The position numbers and the translations under genes were made by a program. The notes beneath the pieces are model-generated. The model was not told the origin of the DNA and made no database searches. It saw nothing but the letters and a program-made list of their open reading frames with translations. Shown piece by piece: positions 124 to 61,839 of a DNA stretch of 64,000 nucleotides. Source of the DNA: Escherichia phage SP15. Positions within the stretch are counted from its first letter, which is position 1. Each line of letters begins with the position of its first letter. Location: sequence record AP019559; one strand, written 5' to 3'.

Positions 124-858
124 TTACGCAACTTTTAATTTCTCAATATATTGTTGCGGGCTGCAACTATATTCTGCGCGTTCTTCTTCGGTCATACTTT
201 CCCAACATAATTGCAGGCGGTCGGCTAGGAATTGATAATCATTATCATCGTCGAGCGATTCATCAATAAAGGTTTCACCTATCAATGTAACACCGATTGA
301 TAGAATATCGTTAATAGCTTGCGCGTCCAGCGTTTTAAATCCGTATGATGCCGCCGCTGATAGCACGCCTTTATGATCATCAATCATCGTAAAATCAGCG
401 TTCGGATATAACTGTTTAAATAACTCAAAATAATAAGATTTATAAACTGCGTCTTTGCTGTGGTATATTTCGCTAACTTTATCAGCTTCAAAATATTTGT
501 GCAGCGTGTCACGGGAGAACACGCGGATATTGCTGTTCCCACGCCCTCGCAATCCTTGCTTGCGTAGGAAGTAATAATCTGACTTGCTCATTAGTCGAGC
601 GGTGCAAATAATGTTTAAAGTATTTGCGTCATTCATGCACTGGCGCATATATGTAACAAGGGGCAATAAGGAATCTTGCATTATTAAATCATGTTTGCAG
701 GCTTCATTTTTATACTTATTTAAATCTAAATTGCCCTCGCTATCAAAGCAAGGCGCTACACGATGAAACGAATTAATGATAGTGCCGTCTAAATCCCAAA
801 TCATAACGCGGGAAATATGCGGGAAATTACGGGTAATATTCATTTTAACTTGATTCAT
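124..858 (-). CDS. dmp: 5'-deoxyribonucleotidase (HAD-superfamily dNMP phosphatase), T5 Dmp-like
   Basis: 244-aa ORF; N-terminal HAD motif I 'IWDLDGTI' (DxDGT); size and position match T5 pre-early dmp as I recall it. Confidence 0.8.
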   Translation of the reverse strand: MNQVKMNITRNFPHISRVMIWDLDGTIINSFHRVAPCFDSEGNLDLNKYKNEACKHDLIMQDSLLPLVTYMRQCMNDANTLNIICTARLMSKSDYYFLRKQGLRGRGNSNIRVFSRDTLHKYFEADKVSEIYHSKDAVYKSYYFELFKQLYPNADFTMIDDHKGVLSAAASYGFKTLDAQAINDILSIGVTLIGETFIDESLDDDNDYQFLADRLQLCWESMTEEERAEYSCSPQQYIEKLKVA

Positions 859-5362: not shown

Positions 5363-5771
5363 TTATCCACTTGACTTTTATTTTCCAGTGGATAACTACT
5401 TATTTTATGAAATAAATTAATTGACTTTTATTTGTTAGTATGCATCGGAAGAATAGCAGACTAATAATTACTAGAATAATAATCATGCTGGTGGATTGTA
5501 ACGGCCTAAACTATCAGCAGACTATTAATCACGAAAAATCTCGTTAGCTAACTAACTATTTCATGATGTATAATATACATATAAATTAATGAGAAATAAT
5601 AATTATAATAAATAATAACTACAGTAAATAATAACTATAAGAAACTATCGGCCTAAGTGAGAACCACTATCATTTAAGTTATCCACAACGTTATCCACAG
5701 CACAAAATAATTTGACACGATAGGCGGCGATATAAGGGCTTATCCACAGACTTATCCACAGGTTATCCTAC
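5363..5771. promoter_or_regulatory. DnaA-box cluster A (six to seven TTATCCAC[A/T] 9-mers) with adjacent AT-rich low-complexity stretch
   Basis: Boxes at 5363-5371, 5387-5395 (opposite strand), 5679-5687, 5691-5699, 5740-5748, 5752-5760, variant 5763-5771; AT-rich tract about 5540-5640. Confidence 0.7.
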
Positions 5772-5786
5772 TGTATAAATATACAG
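5747..5786. repeat. left arm of a 40-bp inverted repeat (39/40 match with 9138-9177)
   Basis: Reverse complement of CAGACTTATCCACAGGTTATCCTACTGTATAAATATACAG recurs at 9138-9177 with one mismatch. Confidence 0.8.
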
Positions 5787-6053
5787 GGTAGAAAGGTAGT
5801 GTTAACAACTGCAATCAATTTTAAGCGGCCTAAAACGCTTTCTAACGAGCTAAATGCGGTGGGGTAATATTAAAGTAAAGCCTTCACCCGTCGCCCTGGT
5901 GGCTTCGCCGTGTTTTGCTCTTTATTGCACCGCTGCGCGGTTAGCATAAAACTAGGCGCTAGGCAAGGAAAATAAAAAGGTAAAATAATATTTGCCTATG
6001 TTAGAAAATTACCTTTATCATTCACTCACCGATTAACGAGGGAGGCCGAACAA

Positions 6054-8799: not shown

Positions 8800-8994
8800 A
8801 TGAGCAATAAAATTATTGTGACCAAAACTACCACAACGGTTGACGTTTTTTATGTGCCTGATACGCCGGAAAACCGGCAAGCGGTCGAGCGGGGCGAATA
8901 TGATAGCGTTATTTATGATCACGATGGTTACTACCAACATTTGGTGGATTCCTACGGGGAGGAGGAAAAAATCACGCATCAATTACCGGACTGA
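8800..8994 (+). CDS. hypothetical acidic protein
   Basis: 64-aa ORF, last gene of the plus-strand cassette. Confidence 0.5.
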   Translation: MSNKIIVTKTTTTVDVFYVPDTPENRQAVERGEYDSVIYDHDGYYQHLVDSYGEEEKITHQLPD

Positions 8995-9001
8995 CAACAA
9001 G

Positions 9002-9023
9002 CGGGGATCTGCTCCCCGTTTTT
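9002..9023 (+). terminator. Rho-independent terminator
   Basis: CGGGGA-tctgc-TCCCCG stem-loop followed by TTTTT directly after the stop at 8994. Confidence 0.7.
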
Positions 9024-9137
9024 CACGCCTCCAGTTAAATACCTCTTTGTTTTAGTATCCCCACCAAAATTAAACGCGTCAGAATGCGATCTAGGACGTT
9101 TTAGCGGTATATTAGAATTATTCACTACATAGGAATA

Positions 9138-9245
9138 CTGTATATTTATACAGTAGGATAAGCTGTGGATAAGTCTGTTAATAACGCTTCAAAATGGCTA
9201 GGATTCTGTCAAGTCAAATCGTGCTGTTAATAAGTCTGTGGATAA
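9138..9245. promoter_or_regulatory. DnaA-box cluster B (three boxes, opposite orientation to cluster A) including the right arm of the 40-bp inverted repeat (9138-9177)
   Basis: Reverse-complement TTATCCACA boxes at 9164-9172 and 9237-9245, variant at 9153-9161. Confidence 0.7.
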
Positions 9246-9255
9246 CTTAAATAAC

Positions 9256-9440
9256 AGTGTTTCTCACTTCCATTCTTAAATGAGAATCATTATCATTCGC
9301 ATTCCACTGTCTAACCGATAATCATTTCACTTTTTGAATAGTTCTCATTTCACTTCTTAAATGAGAATCATTATCATTCGCATTCCACTTCTTAAATGAT
9401 AATGATTCTCATTCAAAGTCGCAGGGCAATTGCCCTGCGC
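9256..9440. repeat. nested direct and inverted repeats ending in the perfect 18-bp palindrome GCAGGGCAATTGCCCTGC (9421-9438)
   Basis: 34-bp unit CTTAAATGAGAATCATTATCATTCGCATTCCACT at 9275-9308 and 9356-9389; inverted copy AATGATAATGATTCTCATT at 9395-9413. Confidence 0.75.
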
Positions 9441-9444
9441 TTTT

Positions 9445-10045
9445 GTGCAAATCCGACATTTGCCCCCATGGATTACGCGTGGGCATGTATGTGCAAATCC
9501 GACAATTTTTGGTAGTGTGCAAATCCGACCCGAAAAATTTTTATAGTGTGCAAATCCGACAATGAATTTTCCCAAAAACTCCAGCAATCACGAACTGCGT
9601 TCGAATCCTGTGGAATTAGCTAGAATATGTGCAAATCCGACATGTGTTGAGGTGTGCGAATCCGACAAGATTTTTATGACTTCGATGAGAAGGTGTGTGA
9701 TTGTATAGGTTTGAGGAAAAGATGAGAGAGCGAGAGAAATTTTGGGGCTAGAAGGATGTGGGCGCAGGATTGGTGCGGAGCACCTGATTTGCAGGTATTT
9801 TGGGGGAGAGTTGAGATAATTTGGGAAGATTTGAGATAGGTGCAGAAAAAGTAAAATTTTATTAGCTAAATGGGGCAAAATAGCTTGACAAGTGAAAATT
9901 CTTGTGGCTCTAAAAACTCAGGCAATCACGGGCCTTCGGCCCGAAATAATGCTGCTATTTTCAGGAGAGTAAGAGTTCCTAAAAACTTAGGCGTTTGTGC
10001 AAATCCGACCATAAATTTCTAGAAACACAATGTGCAAATCCGACA
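9445..10045. repeat. array of eight GTGCAAATCCGAC(A/C) 14-mers, irregularly spaced
   Basis: Copies at 9445, 9491, 9527, 9548, 9629, 9654 (one mismatch), 10007, 10032; a ninth copy inside a CDS at 11823. Confidence 0.8.
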
Positions 10046-10201
10046 GTAAAATCCAGAAATGTGTTTTCAAAAAATGTCTCCTAGAAATAACCGCCCTCCC
10101 TATAACCGCCCTATATTAACCGCCTATTGCTAGAGTTTCTAGGAACAATGAAAACCGCCTGAGTTGACTAGAGTTTTCCTAGAAACTTAGGAGTCTAGAA
10201 G
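10017..10201. repeat. TCTAGAAA-type palindromic motifs and four AACCGCC(C)T direct repeats
   Basis: TTTCTAGAAAC at 10017, CCTAGAAAT at 10081, AGTTTCTAGG at 10133, TTCCTAGAAAC at 10185; AACCGCC at about 10089, 10104, 10119, 10152. Confidence 0.6.
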
Positions 10202-10510
10202 AAAGTGTTGTGCCATCCTAGTAGATGAGCGGCAACAGGTGTATCATCTTGAACACAGATATTGCCTTTAAAAATATTTAAATAATATAAAGAAAAAGAG
10301 ACCCCCAATTTCATGAGAATCTCTCCTGGGGGCGCGTGATTAATTACGTGAGTACTCATGCCGTCATACCGCTGTTGCTAGGCCGCAAGCTATACGAGAC
10401 ATTCGTGTAATAATCATCGCCCCTAGAGTTAATCAACTAGAGTAGTTGTTAATCTATGAGATTATTATAACATGTTTGGGTATGAGAATGCAAGAACTTT
10501 TTGTTAACTT

Positions 10511-11224
10511 TTATTCCTCCTTCTTGGATTTGAGTTTGATGCCTAAGGATGCGAAGTAGATATAAGTTGCTAAATAGGAAGCAGTGGATCCTGTATCATC
10601 GTAATCCATAGTTCCACGAGCTGCTCTAGTATATTCAGGAGCATAGTTTAATATCGTGTAACTTGGCATTCCTAGCGACTTACATAGTTCTTTAAATGTA
10701 TCTTCGTATTTATGGCACATGAAATGCACAGCATTTTCTAATGGCGTTAACTCTAGATCTTTATGGAGAGCTACAGTCAAACTCGCTAGCATTGTGCCAA
10801 TCCCACGATAAACTTCATCTTTAACTAGAGTTGGTTTCTCTTTTTCTAGTGGAGGAAGGTGGGCATATTTCCCATGTTTGAAAGGGATAAGATCTTCGCT
10901 AGCTAATGCTTCTTTAAATGATGCTTCCTTAAATCTTGGGAGATCTTCATCGATTAGGATATGAATAGCATTAGAGGAGAAACCTTTTGCTTCAGGATCT
11001 AAAGCTTTCAACGCTTTATTCACTTCTACATATGAGCCTGACCAAACTACTTGTTTTGCATCTCGATCATACTTGATCTTACCTTTATCCCACCTAGCAG
11101 GATAATGATCTCCTAAAAACATTACTGCATATTTTTCTTCCTCAGTTAGCTGGGAAAGACTCTTTTGTGTAGCACCACGCGCTAACTGAATGAGACGTTT
11201 TAATTTTTCAGCTTCTTTAATCAT
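10511..11224 (-). CDS. hypothetical protein, possible GNAT-type acetyltransferase
   Basis: 237-aa ORF; 'VYRGIGTML' resembles a GNAT acetyl-CoA binding motif; weak. Confidence 0.45.
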   Translation of the reverse strand: MIKEAEKLKRLIQLARGATQKSLSQLTEEEKYAVMFLGDHYPARWDKGKIKYDRDAKQVVWSGSYVEVNKALKALDPEAKGFSSNAIHILIDEDLPRFKEASFKEALASEDLIPFKHGKYAHLPPLEKEKPTLVKDEVYRGIGTMLASLTVALHKDLELTPLENAVHFMCHKYEDTFKELCKSLGMPSYTILNYAPEYTRAARGTMDYDDTGSTASYLATYIYFASLGIKLKSKKEE

Positions 11225-11568
11225 ATATCAGACGCTTGCTCCCCTGTTTCTTTCTTTTCTGTCTTAGGTTTTCTTGCAACTTCTCCAAAGGTTCCTTTGG
11301 TTCTTTCTTTAGCTGGAAGATCTACTTTATACCATAGGATTCCTAATTGTTGCGCTAAATGGGCTATATTCTTTGGTGTTATACTTGGAACATCTTCCCT
11401 ATCAGAAACTTTAGAAATTATATCAAGTAACTCTCCTATTTTTGGCTTACTAGTAGTTATTAGAATATATTCTAATGTTTCTATTTCTACATTTTCATCT
11501 TTATAGTAAAGACTAAGAGTAATTAAATCGTCACCAGCAGAAGTTATTTTTGTTTTACCAAATATCAT
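11221..11568 (-). CDS. hypothetical protein
   Basis: 115-aa ORF, 4-nt overlap with the downstream gene. Confidence 0.5.
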   Translation of the reverse strand: MIFGKTKITSAGDDLITLSLYYKDENVEIETLEYILITTSKPKIGELLDIISKVSDREDVPSITPKNIAHLAQQLGILWYKVDLPAKERTKGTFGEVARKPKTEKKETGEQASDI

Positions 11569-12173
11569 TAACTACCTCTCTTATCTTCATTAAGAGCAGC
11601 TCCCAACGCTTCAAGGATAGTATCATTTATACTCCCAGGCCTAAGATTATTAAAGTGAGTAACATAGATGGGACTTCTAAAACCCTCAGCATCCGCAGGT
11701 GCTACGCTTCGCATATCAGATTCAAAAGCTTCTTGAGTATGTTGCAACTGTACAGAAGGGCCGTAATCTTCACCAACTCGATATGAGGAATTATTTTCTA
11801 TAACGCCACCACATGGAACATTGTGCAAATCCGACGTTATTTTAGGATTAAATGCGATACCACTTTTGGTCCAGGAACCTCCAACAGTCACAGGAGTACT
11901 AGGGCGGTTCACCTCAGTCTTTACGAGTTTATAACCAGCATCTATTAATGCGTTAATAAGGTTATCAGCTGGAATCCGAGCCTTGCCAAAGATCTTACGA
12001 GCTTCTTTTAATTTATGCTCAAGATCTTTACAGGCTTTAATATCAGTGTGCGCAAAGGTTAATTTCATAGATTTGAACTGTACAGTGGCAGTTAAGTCTT
12101 TAAAATCATAATCCCATGTATTTAATTCATGGTCTGGTACTACTTGAACAGGTTGTTGTGCATATAAAGTCAT
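11568..12173 (-). CDS. hypothetical protein
   Basis: 201-aa ORF; contains one copy of the 14-mer repeat at 11823-11836. Confidence 0.55.
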   Translation of the reverse strand: MTLYAQQPVQVVPDHELNTWDYDFKDLTATVQFKSMKLTFAHTDIKACKDLEHKLKEARKIFGKARIPADNLINALIDAGYKLVKTEVNRPSTPVTVGGSWTKSGIAFNPKITSDLHNVPCGGVIENNSSYRVGEDYGPSVQLQHTQEAFESDMRSVAPADAEGFRSPIYVTHFNNLRPGSINDTILEALGAALNEDKRGS

Positions 12174-58552: not shown

Positions 58553-59049
58553 ATTCCCATAAATGAGAGATATTAGTAAAAATTGATTTTGCTAATTTTT
58601 CTTGTTTACAATCCGCGATACGGAACAGTTAGGCTGCCCCATTAAGGGTTGTTTTAACTGTTACGTGTTAGTTTTTAAGCAAATAATTAATAGAATACTT
58701 AGCGATCTGCGTCCCGTAGGAACCCTGGTAAGGCCTCGAAGCAACCTAGATAGAGGTGGTTGTGAAGTGAGACGGGAGGAGTGAAAAACTCCGAGACGTG
58801 ATTCTGTAAGTTATATTGCATCTAGTATGAGCTAGTATATGAAGCATTAGGTGAGCAAATCTGGCTTAGCGGCCATCCTCAAGGATTTGTGCGGTATAGC
58901 AAAGCAGCAGCGCAGCGTGAAAGTGGAAGTTGCCACCCCACTTCAGTATTTGCGATTAATTTGTTGAGAAATTGACAGTAACAGTTGTTCTATTCTTTCT
59001 GAATAGTCCTAAAGAAAACTTATTTCATTTCCAACACAGGAGTATTGTT

Positions 59050-61839
59050 GTGTTTTCAATCCTACAAGGTCATGCAGGATTTCATCGCGATTTAGCCACA
59101 GGCAATTGGCGAGAAGTTAAGGCAGAAGATTATCTTTTTGCTAAAAGATTTTCCTCAAAGCATCCCGAAGGTAAACCAGCTTCAATGCCCTTCAAGTTTG
59201 ATGTAATTGATGAAGTTGATCCTCAAACCCTAGTAGAAATGCTTCCTCTTATGAGACGTTTAACGTCTGACCCTCATATCGTTGCGGTACGAGGTCGATG
59301 TCTTGCACCTAAAAATAATGTGCGACGTAAGAAGGGCAACTTTAATGTATCTAATCCAAGTCATATAATCGCAATGGATGTGGATGGTATTGTAGATACA
59401 GGAGGTTGTAACAAGTTTGATCTTGTTGGCATGGCGCGTCATATTATTAGGATGTTGAATAGTATTAGTGAGGATATGTTTCCTCTTGATGCAGGGTTTA
59501 TTGCTCATGCATCATCTTCGGCTGGCCTAAAACCAGGTATCCGAATGCACTTAATACTAGAATCTAATGTTAAAGTTACACAGGGTCAGATCAAGTTCTT
59601 ATTTACATCTATCAACGAAAGTAGTAGACAAAAGTATGGCTTTGATATTGCCGACTTAGCTTATTACTCTTCCGTACAGCTCCACTATTTTGCAGATCCT
59701 TTATTTACTGATGGTATAGTTGATCCGTTTAAAGCGGAGGGTGCTTCACGTCTGGTATTTGTTAAAGGCTCAAAAGTAAATTTACCTAATAATCTAGTTG
59801 ACTATGAAACAACTAGAGGAGAGTTTAAAGAGGAATTCTACTCTTTACTCGATCAAATTAAAGGTAAAAAAGCCGCCTCCGATAAAGTAGAGGAAACTAT
59901 CAGCGAACTAGAAGAAGCTGAGGATGGAGTGTATCTACGTATTATTCCTAAACTCTATCACAGGGCTTTAGAGGATGGTGTTGATTTTGCATGGCTAGAA
60001 AAAGAAATCCGCCCAGCCTTATCAGAGTATATTGCAACTAAAGATAATAGTCGTAATATTCAAGATTATTTTAACAACGGTAGAAAACAGGCTCTGAAAG
60101 CGTTTGTTAATAATTCTAAACGTGATATACCGGATGTTTTAAAAGGTATTCCACTTAAAAAGCTAGAAACTAACTCTCTAGAGACTGATAACTTCTTGAA
60201 ATTAAATACTGTACCACCAGAAGGTTATATGACTTTTGTAAAAGCAAGTCTAGGTACAGGTAAAACTACGGCGGTTGTGCGTTGGTTAGATTCAGGAGTT
60301 ATTAAGGGTAATTTCTTAGCAATTACCAATACTCGAGCACTGGTATCTTCAAATGCTAAGAAATTTAGTGCAGGACAATATGATAAGTCTGTAGATATGC
60401 TTAATTTTAAGCGTGGCGCTATTGACCGTATGTCCACAACTATACATTCTTTGCATAAGTTCAAGAGTTTTATTGGTCAAATCGATGCAATCTTTATCGA
60501 TGAATGTGACGCTGTAATGAATGACCTATTATTCGCCCCGGTTGTTAAACAACGTCGTGAATGTATTCAGGTTCTTCGGGATATTCTTGCAACTGCAAAA
60601 ATCATTATATTATCTGATGGTGATATTAGTGCTGAAACAATTGAAGCATATGGTTCTTTGATTGAGTTTGATAAACCGGTTGCATTTTATAATCATCACC
60701 GTAAGATGCTGTCAAAAGCTCATGCTTATGAGTTCCCTGATGAATCTAGTATTTGGGTTGCACTTCAGACCTCTCTAGAGATGGGTGAGAAATCTATTCT
60801 GGTATCTGATTGTGGGCCGGATGAGCTGAATGAGAAAGGTATGGCACTGCGTCGTAATACGGGTGCGTTAGTTAAGGAAATCCATTCAAACTCTACCTCA
60901 GATGTGGATATTAGACGTATTCTGGATTACACAACTAATGAACTAATTGATCAACAAATTGATTGTTTATTATGTAGTCCATCCGTAACGAGTGGTGTTG
61001 ACTTTAACTATTTTGATAACGTATTTGTTATTACTAGAACTAGTAATCAAGCGCCAAACATGCGTTTCCAAGCAATCAGGCGCGACCGTGGTGCTCAGAA
61101 TATCTATTATTTTATTGATAAATCCACTAGTGGATTCTCCGCAGGTTCTGAACAATATAATATTGATGAGGGTTGGCTGGAGTTAGCACAGCAATTATAC
61201 GCACGTCGCAGGGAGCTGGAATCTAGGAACTATACTAGTACTTTACGTTATTACTTACTTGATCAGGGTGCAACTATTGATATTTTCAGTGAAAGCTGGG
61301 GAACTATTGAAGGTGCTGGTAAAGAGTATACAGAAGAGCGAATCAAAGCTATTCTGCACTCAACTCCTGATTATTGTGCTCCACGTCATGCGGATGCGTA
61401 TGAAGCTAAACTACTTCTTGTTCGCTATTATCATCTGGAGTCTATTAAAGATGTAACCGTTGAGCATGTTGAACAATATATCAAAGATAAGCCGAATGAT
61501 CGAGCTGCATTCTTCCATAAGATGCATGAGATGTTCTGGGAAGATATTAAGAAGTGTTCAAATGTCACTATCAAACCTTTCATAGAAGCTCTGAAAGGTA
61601 AGAAGAAAGATTTCTTCCTTAAAACAGGTCAGAGTGCTAACCCAAAATATGCTAGAATGTATCTTGGTATGATGGGTATTGGTAAAGATATGAACACGGA
61701 GAATATCGTAGACTGGTACAGAACCTATTGTAAAATCGAGTGTATGCCAATTCCTTTCAAATTCATGACAGAGGAAGAACGTCAGATGCACGAGGAAGCA
61801 ATGTCAGAGCTAGGTGCTAGAAATGACAGTGAAGAATAA
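59050..61839 (+). CDS. primase-helicase-like protein (AEP-type primase/polymerase-like N-terminus fused to P-loop NTPase)
   Basis: Track ORF starts at 58972; GTG at 59050 has AGGAG 7 nt upstream; 'IIAMDVDG' DxD motif, Walker A 'GTGKTT', Walker B 'IFIDECD'. Confidence 0.55.
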   Translation: MFSILQGHAGFHRDLATGNWREVKAEDYLFAKRFSSKHPEGKPASMPFKFDVIDEVDPQTLVEMLPLMRRLTSDPHIVAVRGRCLAPKNNVRRKKGNFNVSNPSHIIAMDVDGIVDTGGCNKFDLVGMARHIIRMLNSISEDMFPLDAGFIAHASSSAGLKPGIRMHLILESNVKVTQGQIKFLFTSINESSRQKYGFDIADLAYYSSVQLHYFADPLFTDGIVDPFKAEGASRLVFVKGSKVNLPNNLVDYETTRGEFKEEFYSLLDQIKGKKAASDKVEETISELEEAEDGVYLRIIPKLYHRALEDGVDFAWLEKEIRPALSEYIATKDNSRNIQDYFNNGRKQALKAFVNNSKRDIPDVLKGIPLKKLETNSLETDNFLKLNTVPPEGYMTFVKASLGTGKTTAVVRWLDSGVIKGNFLAITNTRALVSSNAKKFSAGQYDKSVDMLNFKRGAIDRMSTTIHSLHKFKSFIGQIDAIFIDECDAVMNDLLFAPVVKQRRECIQVLRDILATAKIIILSDGDISAETIEAYGSLIEFDKPVAFYNHHRKMLSKAHAYEFPDESSIWVALQTSLEMGEKSILVSDCGPDELNEKGMALRRNTGALVKEIHSNSTSDVDIRRILDYTTNELIDQQIDCLLCSPSVTSGVDFNYFDNVFVITRTSNQAPNMRFQAIRRDRGAQNIYYFIDKSTSGFSAGSEQYNIDEGWLELAQQLYARRRELESRNYTSTLRYYLLDQGATIDIFSESWGTIEGAGKEYTEERIKAILHSTPDYCAPRHADAYEAKLLLVRYYHLESIKDVTVEHVEQYIKDKPNDRAAFFHKMHEMFWEDIKKCSNVTIKPFIEALKGKKKDFFLKTGQSANPKYARMYLGMMGIGKDMNTENIVDWYRTYCKIECMPIPFKFMTEEERQMHEEAMSELGARNDSEE

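What the first reader, a model, noticed from the sequence alone, without database searches (positions are those of the whole stretch)
9250..10300. Repeat-dense non-coding tract: 14-mer family, palindromes and short iteron-like motifs
About 1 kb without convincing coding potential carries eight GTGCAAATCCGAC(A/C) copies, two 34-bp direct repeats with an inverted copy, a perfect 18-bp palindrome, a duplicated AAAAACTC(C)AGGCAATCACG-plus-hairpin unit (9571-9603 and 9911-9942), TCTAGAAA palindromic motifs and four AACCGCC repeats. A ninth 14-mer copy lies inside the CDS at 11823-11836. This density suggests a protein-binding platform; from its position I interpret it as the injection-stop / terminal-repeat boundary region of a T5-like genome.
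Basis: partly seen in the sequence, partly recalled or inferred. Interest (0 to 1): 0.65.

Follow-up and report, generated by a model that had tools for sequence, protein, structure and literature searches.

The report
T5-type injection-stop and terminal-repeat boundary region
This repeat-packed non-coding kilobase is the well-described "injection stop signal / Repeat Region 3" at the right end of the left terminal repeat of a T5-like phage; it is real and conserved across the phage family, it was already annotated in phage T5, and its mechanism is still unknown.

Summary
The window is a Tequintavirus genome (94% to Salmonella phage VSe12, 92% to BF23). The tract is collinear with T5 "Repeat Region 3" (AY587007 9194-10409).

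The 14-mers are T5 "direct repeat D" copies 1-8, with identical spacing. The 36-nt repeats are T5 DRC/DRE. The palindrome is palJ and carries the major nick-1 site. The terminal-repeat ends of T5, BF23 and SIA3lw all map to window 9910. T5's nominal first-step-transfer shear point maps to about 9401.

What I add:
- The conserved non-coding block is 9048-10254 (mean identity 0.88, against 0.30-0.35 in the flanks).
- The iteron motif GTGCRRAWYCKAY and the overall layout persist across Demerecviridae (Klebsiella, Pantoea, Pectobacterium and Vibrio phages).
- The block contains a near-consensus LexA SOS box (9136-9155, with a twin at 5769-5788).
- It contains three copies of a 15-mer identical to the core of the aerobactin Fur operator.
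- It also contains the already-reported DnaA boxes.

I found no mention of the LexA and Fur resemblances in the literature I could search. Which element stops DNA transfer, and what binds the 14-mers, remains untested.

The parts
9000..9019 (+). GC-rich hairpin plus T-run. Terminator ending the rightward pre-early operon (T5 palindrome C).
   Evidence: Annotated as a terminator in T5 and BF23.
5655..5788 (.). IRC-spacer-IRD, the inverted twin of 9136-9268. It carries four perfect DnaA boxes (TTATCCACA) and an SOS-box-like palindrome at 5769-5788.
   Evidence: (41 nt at 97.6% and 33 nt at 91%, inverted).
9136..9155 (.). Palindrome D, TACTGTATATTTATACAGTA. It matches the LexA SOS-box consensus TACTGTATATATATACAGTA at 19 of 20 positions.
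   Evidence: Kept at 18-19/20 in 14 of 15 relatives, and at 16-19/20 in Klebsiella (Sealy), Pantoea (AAS21) and Vibrio (PG07, D423, Brizo) phages.
9138..9268 (.). IRD'-spacer-IRC' with two pairs of DnaA/DnaA* boxes on the - strand: 9164-9172, 9176-9184, 9225-9233 and 9237-9245.
   Evidence: Described in Davison bioRxiv 10.1101/866236.
9273..9416 (.). DRC/DRE repeats. Direct copies at 9273-9308 and 9354-9389; inverted copy at 9395-9413. Each holds AATGAGAATCATTAT, which is Fur-operator-like (15/19 to GATAATGATAATCATTATC). T5's nominal FST shear point maps to 9401.
9420..9440 (+). Perfect 20-bp GC-rich palindrome (T5 palJ). It overlaps the homologue of the T5 major nick-1 site (7.9%), CCCTGCGC, at 9433-9440.
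   Evidence: mean identity 0.97.
9445..9667 (+). Iteron cluster 1: six direct copies of (T)GTGC(A/G)AATCCGAC(A/C), equal to T5 direct repeat D copies 1-6. Start-to-start spacings are 46, 26, 31, 81 and 25.
9574..9592 (+). First copy of AAAAACTCCAGCAATCACG, followed by a short hairpin.
9797..9838 (+). G-rich tandem repeat (T5 direct repeat A copies 2 and 3; TTGGGGnAGAnTTGAGATA). Retained in Klebsiella and Pantoea phages.
9885..9930 (+). Predicted right end of the left terminal repeat, between 9910 and 9911 (...AAATTCTTGTGGCTC|TAAAAACTCAGGCAATCACG). A conserved TTGACA lies upstream. The second copy of the AAAAACTC...CACG unit follows immediately.
9931..9943 (+). GGGCCTTCGGCCC hairpin (a C(UUCG)G tetraloop if transcribed), 21 nt beyond the terminal-repeat end.
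   Evidence: kept in BF23, T5 and Pantoea AAS21.
9997..10045 (+). Iteron cluster 2: two copies (T5 direct repeat D copies 7 and 8), in unique DNA just outside the terminal repeat.
   Evidence: identity 1.00 and 0.995.
10016..10187 (.). YCTAGRAA palindromic motifs and four AACCGCC(CTCC) repeats (10089, 10104, 10118, 10153). A 12-nt perfect inverted repeat lies at 10134-10145 / 10176-10187.
   Evidence: AATAACCGCCCTCC repeats are kept in Sealy and AAS21.
10294..10327 (-). Terminator-like hairpin plus T-run that ends the leftward early operon.
11823..11835 (+). Ninth iteron copy, inside the leftward CDS 11568-12173. It is kept at the same relative position in many relatives.
   Evidence: motif identity 0.95 against a CDS mean of 0.79.

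Best explanation
The tract is this phage's homologue of bacteriophage T5 "Repeat Region 3". That is the conserved non-coding block (window 9048-10254) lying between the last rightward pre-early gene and the first leftward early gene. It holds the injection-stop (iss) region, the major nick-1 site and the right boundary of the ~9.9-kb left terminal repeat (predicted at 9910/9911).

It is a composite of cis-acting sites, not one element. From left to right:
- an SOS-box-like palindrome plus paired DnaA boxes, with an inverted twin 3.35 kb upstream;
- three Fur-operator-like DRC repeats, where T5's first-step-transfer shear point maps;
- a GC palindrome carrying the nick site;
- six direct iterons (T5 DRD);
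- an almost invariant ~200 bp spanning the terminal-repeat end;
- two more iterons;
- AACCGCC and CTAGRAA repeats;
- the terminator of the early operon.

Inferred mechanism (none of these steps is shown here). Sequence-specific proteins occupy these sites. When the left 8% of the genome has entered the cell, the DNA is held at or near 9136-9416 until the pre-early proteins A1 and A2 are made and transfer resumes. The same block, present again in the right terminal repeat, supplies the nick site and the end-cutting signal used at packaging.
For: Identity of the region:
- The window is 94% identical to VSe12 and 92% to BF23 over the tract.
- The three-way alignment with T5 and BF23 has 88% mean column identity.
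- Every T5-annotated repeat maps onto a window repeat. DRD1-8 have the same sequence and the same spacing.
- T5 publications define this tract as the iss region.

Terminal-repeat end:
- Three independently annotated ends map to window 9910.
- The motif spanning the end is conserved in Klebsiella and Pantoea phages.

Functional constraint:
- The block averages 0.88 identity against 0.30-0.35 in the flanks.
- The adjacent early protein is only 33-60% identical in most of the records that encode it (236 of 289 below 60%), many of them phages whose non-coding block is 78-90% identical to the window's.
- Iterons are more conserved than their spacers (0.93 against 0.82).
- The same layout and the iteron motif GTGCRRAWYCKAY recur in Klebsiella, Pantoea, Pectobacterium and three Vibrio phage lineages.

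A second FST band reported near the upstream twin module fits the LexA/DnaA-box module as the stop element (section 4.3 of the preprint).
Against: - No experiment identifies which sub-element stops transfer. The 7.9% shear point is a rough estimate, made in T5 only.
- The window does not include the right genome end, so the terminal-repeat boundary is inferred by homology. Two relatives annotate it 29 nt and about 210 nt further left.
- The iterons lie distal to the nominal stop, so they may have nothing to do with stopping.
- Complete T5 DNA ejection occurs in vitro with FhuA proteoliposomes (preprint text). A DNA-intrinsic block alone is therefore insufficient.
Confidence: 0.85

Rival explanations
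1. The iterons, the G-rich DRA repeats and the invariant segment are mainly a packaging signal. The small terminase subunit binds the direct repeats that flank the terminal-repeat end, and the large subunit cuts at ...TGTGGCTC|TAAAAAC to make the right genome end. Under this reading the injection stop is a separate function of the left part of the block, or is not sequence-encoded at all.
For: - Six iterons lie 245-465 nt inside the predicted repeat end and two lie 87-122 nt outside it.
- The most conserved DNA of the block surrounds the end (0.92-0.96).
- The end-spanning motif is conserved across genera.
- In BF23 the gene annotated as nicking endonuclease sits between the terminase and portal genes, and nick site 1 abuts iteron 1.
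Against: - No iterons occur near the left cut site (the start of the right terminal repeat in BF23).
- Extra copies sit in two coding regions far from any end.
- No terminase-binding data exist.
Confidence: 0.25
2. The block is an iteron-type replication origin. Paired DnaA boxes plus direct iterons in one orientation, with a second smaller iteron cluster, would be bound by a phage initiator such as the UL9-like 'origin-binding' helicase.
For: - DnaA boxes and same-orientation iterons in two clusters resemble plasmid P1/F/R6K-type origins (my knowledge of those systems).
- The window encodes a 955-aa helicase matching Pfam Herpes_ori_bp.
- The reverse complement of the variant iteron contains TTCGCAC, the core of the HSV UL9 box as I recall it from memory.
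- Old electron-microscopy work reported multiple T5 origins (cited in the preprint).
Against: - The Pfam match covers only helicase motifs (profile positions 51-197 of 820), not the UL9 DNA-binding domain.
- No initiator gene is adjacent.
- There is no conserved AT-rich unwinding element. The AT-rich stretch at 10255-10300 is not conserved.
- The preprint places the main origin near the genome centre.
- GC skew follows gene orientation and is uninformative.
Confidence: 0.12
3. The block is chiefly transcriptional. It would hold operators for host LexA, Fur and DnaA that control promoters firing into or out of the repeat end, plus terminators and perhaps a small RNA.
For: - Near-consensus SOS box and Fur-operator-like repeats.
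- Promoter-like hexamers overlap them.
- Conserved TTGACA at 9885.
- A UUCG hairpin at 9931-9943.
- Terminator-like sites number 4, against 1.3 expected.
Against: - Promoter-like sites are not enriched (5 found, 5.3 expected).
- There is no Rfam match.
- T5 and BF23 annotate no promoter here.
- I found no transcript-mapping data.
Confidence: 0.15
4. The repeats are neutral debris of replication slippage in a gene-poor spacer, or the tract hides small protein genes.
For: Some GenBank records annotate several small hypothetical proteins here. One 50-aa ORF (9870-10022) stays open in 13 of 15 relatives.
Against: - The block is far more conserved than the neighbouring genes.
- The motifs persist across subfamilies while the spacers diverge.
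- All other ORFs are frameshifted or stopped in relatives.
- The surviving ORF lies in almost invariant DNA, so it would stay open whether or not it is a gene.
Confidence: 0.03

Closest known systems
Bacteriophage T5 Repeat Region 3 / injection stop signal (iss) region. AY587007 9194-10409; Heusterspreute 1987 and Wang 2005 from my knowledge; Davison bioRxiv 10.1101/866236.
   Same: - Same genomic position.
- Collinear sequence (84% overall identity to T5, 89% to BF23).
- Same named repeats: palC, palD, IRD'/IRC', DRB, DRC, palE-J, DRD1-8 and DRA2-3.
- Same nick-1 motif and same terminal-repeat end.
   Different: - T5 DRD copy 9 lies in a 46-bp insertion that is absent here and in BF23.
- One DRC copy (T5 DRC2) is missing through a 23-bp deletion.
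- palJ is a longer perfect palindrome here.
BF23 left-terminal-repeat end (OR083247, repeat of 9743 bp determined with PhageTerm; PMC10644984).
   Same: The repeat end aligns to the same base as T5's and to window 9910. There are 8 iterons in the tract plus one in the downstream CDS.
   Different: BF23 has a rearranged copy 5 region and different sequence between DRD7 and DRD8.
Iteron-plus-DnaA-box plasmid origins (P1 oriR, F oriS, R6K gamma).
   Same: Paired DnaA boxes next to an array of direct 13-19-bp repeats in one orientation, with a second separate repeat cluster.
   Different: There is no adjacent initiator gene and no conserved AT-rich unwinding element. Iteron spacing is irregular (25-81 nt). 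No replication evidence exists.
E. coli LexA SOS boxes and the aerobactin (iucA) Fur operator.
   Same: - palD matches the SOS consensus at 19 of 20 positions, with CTGT-N8-ACAG intact.
- The DRC repeats contain the 15-mer AATGAGAATCATTAT. That 15-mer lies within a 43-nt stretch found 21 nt upstream of iucA on 804 plasmids.
   Different: The sites are not demonstrably in promoters. Binding is untested. T5's own DRC copies are somewhat less Fur-like.

Membership tests
T5-type Repeat Region 3 / iss region | Non-coding tract between the last rightward pre-early gene and the first leftward early gene, about 8% from the left end. | tested here: met
   ORF map; BF23 and T5 annotation; ORFs not conserved.
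T5-type Repeat Region 3 / iss region | Collinear sequence homology with T5 9194-10409, including the named repeats. | tested here: met
   All features map except DRD9 and DRC2.
T5-type Repeat Region 3 / iss region | 131-bp IRD'-spacer-IRC' with paired DnaA boxes, and an inverted twin a few kb to the left. | tested here: met
   9138-9268 and 5655-5788.
T5-type Repeat Region 3 / iss region | Series of direct repeat D copies, all in one orientation. | tested here: met
   8 copies plus 1 in the CDS, against 0.04 expected by chance.
T5-type Repeat Region 3 / iss region | The terminal-repeat boundary lies inside the tract. | tested here: inconclusive
   Three annotated relatives map to 9910 and two map 29 nt and about 210 nt to the left. 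The window lacks the right genome end, so the boundary cannot be read directly.
T5-type Repeat Region 3 / iss region | First-step DNA transfer actually halts here. | not testable with these tools
   This needs blender-shear or sequencing of first-step-transfer DNA. Only T5's approximate 9618 could be mapped, to window 9401.
Iteron-type replication origin | Direct iterons plus DnaA boxes. | tested here: met
Iteron-type replication origin | Adjacent initiator gene and a conserved AT-rich unwinding element. | tested here: not met
   Neighbouring ORFs have no Pfam match. The AT-rich stretch at 10255-10300 is not conserved.
Iteron-type replication origin | Replication initiates at the site. | not testable with these tools
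   No data.
Terminase recognition / end-cutting site of a direct-terminal-repeat phage | A conserved sequence spans the genome end. | tested here: met
   AAATTCYTGTGGCTC|TAAAAA is kept in Escherichia, Salmonella, Klebsiella and Pantoea phages.
Terminase recognition / end-cutting site of a direct-terminal-repeat phage | The small terminase subunit binds nearby repeats. | not testable with these tools
   No binding data.
LexA SOS box | CTGT-N8-ACAG palindrome close to TACTGTATATATATACAGTA. | tested here: met
   19/20 at 9136 and 17/20 at 5769. These are the only two sites scoring 17/20 or better in the 64 kb.
LexA SOS box | Bound by LexA, and overlapping a regulated promoter. | not testable with these tools
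   Only a weak promoter-like match on the minus strand at 9144-9117.
Fur box | At least about 14 of 19 matches to GATAATGATAATCATTATC. | tested here: met
   Three repeat copies score 15/19, giving 5 of the 10 best strand-hits in the window. Shuffles of 9251-9420 give a mean of 0.007 hits at that level.
Fur box | Bound by Fe-Fur. | not testable with these tools
   No data.

The most novel reading that the evidence does not exclude
The conserved block may be a landing pad for three host global DNA-binding proteins. Near-consensus LexA, DnaA and Fur operators are the only BLAST-detectable islands shared between coliphage-type and Vibrio or Pectobacterium Demerecviridae.

Binding of these pre-existing host proteins to the last-entered DNA, and to its inverted twin 3.35 kb upstream, could be what arrests first-step transfer without new protein synthesis. 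The family-wide GTGCRRAWYCKAY iterons just beyond would bind a conserved phage protein (A2, small terminase subunit or the origin-binding-like helicase) that restarts transfer or marks the repeat end.

I found no mention of the LexA and Fur resemblances in the literature I could search. Older subscription papers were not searchable.
Probability: 0.15. Interest if true: 0.75.

Novelty: already known. Interest (0 to 1): 0.28.

Why it matters
How T5 stops and restarts DNA entry after 8% of its genome has been open since the 1960s. Papers from 2026 still describe the mechanism as poorly understood.

The finding itself only rediscovers the annotated region. The comparative map made here narrows what to test. 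It gives a defined 1.2-kb constrained block. It gives a family-wide iteron consensus that could be used for pull-downs. It also gives three host-factor operator types (LexA, DnaA, Fur) that can be tested simply by measuring first-step-transfer length in lexA, fur and dnaA mutant hosts.

Tried and rejected
- Rfam scan of 8800-10800 at E up to 1: only sub-threshold noise.
- Sigma-70 promoter scan: no enrichment, 5 found against 5.3 expected.
- GC/AT skew: follows gene orientation and is not informative about an origin.
- Small ORFs in the tract: broken in relatives.
- Idea that the iteron co-varies between genera, which would imply a genus-specific phage binder. I withdrew it. Brizo, D423, PG07 and DU_PP_V all use variants of one degenerate motif, and variation within a genome is as large as variation between genomes.
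- Idea that iterons mark all major nick sites. I rejected it. No iteron-like match lies elsewhere in the 64 kb, where T5's nicks 2 and 3 would map. T5's DRD11/12 do lie 370 bp from nick 4.
- Resemblances of the 14-mer to CRP, sigma-54, IHF, XerC-arm and tRNA T-arm sequences, considered by eye. All were too weak to pursue.
- UL9 box resemblance (TTCGCAC). It stays a lead only, because the Pfam match to Herpes_ori_bp covers helicase motifs alone.
- Davison 2015 (Bacteriophage 5:e1086500) and the reference list of the 2020 preprint could not be retrieved.
Full report
**1.

- Reading 8800-10800 and searching GTGCAAATCCGACM with up to one mismatch gives nine matches. All are on the + strand: eight between 9445 and 10045 and one at 11823. 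Dinucleotide-preserving shuffles expect 0.04.
- The repeat finder and a self-BLAST show perfect 36-nt direct repeats at 9273-9308 and 9354-9389, with a 19-nt perfect inverted copy at 9395-9413.
- There is a perfect 20-bp palindrome at 9420-9439.
- The AAAAACTC..GCAATCACG unit occurs at 9574 and 9912. These are the only two GCAATCACG in 64 kb.
- Four of the window's nine AACCGCC lie within 70 nt.
- The YCTAGRAA palindromes are clustered.
- The mechanical ORFs in the tract are frameshifted or stopped in relatives. The exception is a 50-aa ORF at 9870-10022, which lies in almost invariant DNA.

**2. What the tract is**

Megablast finds 454 phage records. The best are Salmonella phage VSe12 (94%) and Escherichia phage BF23 (92%), so the window is a Tequintavirus genome read from its left end.

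The GenBank record of T5 (AY587007) annotates the homologous stretch in detail. It lists palindromes C-J, inverted repeats D' and C', direct repeats A, B, C and D, "major single-stranded nick 1, 7.9%", and the end of the left terminal repeat at 10139.

A three-way alignment (88% mean column identity) and a coordinate transfer put each of these on a window feature:

| Window feature | T5 counterpart |
|---|---|
| 14-mers 9445-10045 | Direct repeat D copies 1-8, same spacings (46, 26, 31, 81, 25, 343, 35) |
| 36-nt repeats | DRC/DRE |
| Palindrome 9420-9439 | palJ; nick-site octamer CCCTGCGC identical at 9433-9440 |
| 9797-9835 | DRA copies 2 and 3 |

T5's DRD copy 9 sits in a 46-bp insertion that is absent here and in BF23.

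The repeat end of T5 (10139), of BF23 (9743, determined with PhageTerm) and of SIA3lw all fall on window 9910 (...TTGTGGCTC|TAAAAACTC). Two other records annotate it 29 nt and about 210 nt further left. T5's nominal first-step-transfer shear point (9618) maps to window 9401.

The literature calls this tract "Repeat Region 3" and treats it as the seat of the injection stop signal (Davison, bioRxiv 10.1101/866236). [quoted passage not shown]

**3. Extent and constraint**

Aligning 15 non-identical relatives (52-89% identity overall) shows a sharply bounded conserved block at 9048-10254. Mean per-base identity is 0.88, against 0.30-0.35 immediately outside.

The flagged start (9250) therefore cuts off the left quarter of the element. 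That quarter holds palD and the four DnaA/DnaA* boxes at 9136-9268, which the preprint regards as the prime iss candidate. Its inverted twin is present in the window at 5655-5788, with four perfect TTATCCACA boxes.

- Iterons are more conserved than their spacers (0.93 against 0.82).
- The most conserved stretch is 9780-9995, around the repeat end (0.92-0.96).
- The first early protein next door is below 60% identical in 236 of the 289 records that encode it. The block's nucleotide identity to the window is 78-90% across most T5-like records.

**4. Reach across the family**

Repeat analysis of the equivalent intergenic regions was done for these phages:
- Klebsiella phage Sealy;
- Pantoea phage AAS21;
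- Vibrio phages PG07 (Pogseptimavirus), D423 and Brizo (Ermolyevavirinae);
- Pectobacterium phage DU_PP_V (Mccorquodalevirinae).

They show the same order of parts in Sealy, AAS21 and PG07, inverted in DU_PP_V and with parts missing in D423, Brizo and DU_PP_V: palindrome D, DnaA boxes, DRC-type repeats, a GC-rich palindrome with GCGC, then an iteron array. The array is usually split into two clusters 270-370 nt apart.

The iteron is one degenerate motif, GTGC-R-R-A-W-Y-C-K-A-Y:

| Phage | Iteron |
|---|---|
| Window / T5 | GTGCAAATCCGAC |
| Brizo | GGTGCAAATCCGAC and GGTGCAAATTCTAT |
| D423 | GTGCGAAACCTAT |
| PG07 | GTGCGGATTCTAT |
| DU_PP_V | GTGCAAATCCGAT |

I first thought the iteron co-varied with genus. 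I withdrew this, because variation within a genome equals variation between genomes.

Beyond the tract, copies occur in the CDS at 11823, where the motif is more conserved than the gene (0.95 against 0.79). A tandem pair lies in the D13/exo2 gene of BF23 and T5 and is annotated in T5 as DRD 11 and 12. All copies share one orientation.

**5. Things seen that I could not find in the literature**

- palD (9136-9155, TACTGTATATTTATACAGTA) matches the E. coli LexA SOS-box consensus at 19 of 20 positions. Its twin at 5769 matches 17 of 20. These are the only sites in 64 kb scoring 17/20 or better.
- The box is kept at 18-19/20 in 14 of 15 relatives and at 16-19/20 in Sealy, AAS21, PG07, D423 and Brizo.
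- The three DRC copies each match the 19-bp Fur consensus at 15/19. They give 5 of the window's 10 best strand-hits. Shuffles of the segment give a mean of 0.007 such hits.
- The DRC copies contain the 15-mer AATGAGAATCATTAT. I recalled the aerobactin promoter from memory and checked it. The 43-mer containing GATAATGAGAATCATTATT sits 21 nt upstream of iucA on 804 plasmids.
- BLAST between PG07 and enterobacterial T5-like phages detects only the LexA/DnaA-box module. Between PG07 and the D-series Vibrio phages or DU_PP_V it detects only a Fur-like element.
- Neither LexA nor Fur is mentioned in the 2020 preprint. My searches found no paper linking them to T5. Older subscription papers (Heusterspreute 1987, Wang 2005, Davison 2015) could not be read, so I do not claim priority.

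**6. How it most likely works**

Shown here:
- homology with T5 Repeat Region 3;
- position in the genome;
- strong purifying constraint;
- family-wide motifs.

Inferred: the block is a composite of protein-binding sites.
- The left modules, which hold host-factor-like operators and lie where the nominal stop maps, are the best candidates for arresting first-step transfer without new protein synthesis. An old report of a second FST band near the upstream twin module fits this.
- palJ/GCGC is the nick-1 site.
- The invariant segment with ...TGTGGCTC|TAAAAAC is the end-forming site used at packaging.
- The iterons bind a conserved but unidentified protein.

Rivals for the iterons are terminase recognition (about 0.25), a replication origin (about 0.12) and transcriptional control (about 0.15). 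The window's 955-aa "origin-binding" helicase matches Pfam Herpes_ori_bp only in its helicase motifs.

**7. Verdict**

The feature is already known and is annotated in the T5 reference genome. Interest is low to moderate. Residual value lies in the sharpened map and in the LexA/Fur/DnaA host-factor hypothesis, which mutant hosts can test directly.

Noticed in passing
window 9136-9155 and 5769-5788: Near-consensus LexA SOS boxes (19/20 and 17/20 to TACTGTATATATATACAGTA) sit at the outer end of each arm of the long inverted repeat IRD/IRD'. They are conserved out to Vibrio phages. I found no mention of them in the T5 literature I could search.
   Followed up: partly
window 9276-9294, 9357-9375, 9398-9416: The DRC/DRE repeats are Fur-operator-like (15/19). 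They share the 15-mer AATGAGAATCATTAT with a 43-nt sequence found just upstream of iucA (aerobactin). Fur-like elements are also the only DNA shared between distant Vibrio and Pectobacterium relatives.
   Followed up: partly
window 228-252: The best Fur-consensus match in the whole window (16/19, GGAATTGATAATCATTATC) lies inside the dmp gene, about 230 nt from the left genome terminus. That is in the first DNA to enter the cell.
   Followed up: no
window 5655-5788: This is the inverted twin of the iss-proximal module. It carries four perfect DnaA boxes (TTATCCACA) in two pairs, and lies between the divergent pre-early operons.
   Followed up: partly
L124 19272-19299 (BF23 74272-74299); T5 79019-79048: A tandem pair of the 14-mer lies inside the D13/exo2 gene at about 65% of the genome, 370 bp from T5's major nick 4. 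It is outside this window and in the same orientation as all other copies.
   Followed up: partly
window 9870-10022: A 50-aa ORF spanning the predicted terminal-repeat end stays open in 13 of 15 relatives. The DNA is almost invariant and I saw no obvious Shine-Dalgarno sequence, so this is probably not a gene.
   Followed up: partly
L083 982-1598, L113; records OQ383622 and MK770410: Some relatives carry an insertion of about 0.5-0.6 kb within the iteron array. In two other records (OQ383622, MK770410) a homing HNH endonuclease gene is annotated under the match. The spacing between iterons 3 and 5 is therefore not critical.
   Followed up: no
window 58972-61839: A 955-aa protein matches Pfam Herpes_ori_bp (E = 3.6e-7), but only over helicase motifs. 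Its first ~420 residues have no family match and could be a DNA-binding domain.
   Followed up: partly
window 10511-11224 (minus strand): The first early gene product is only 33-60% identical in most T5-like phages, much less conserved than the adjacent non-coding block. It has no Pfam match.
   Followed up: partly
window 9931-9943: GGGCCTTCGGCCC would form a C(UUCG)G tetraloop hairpin if transcribed. It lies 21 nt beyond the repeat end and is conserved in T5, BF23 and Pantoea phage AAS21.
   Followed up: no
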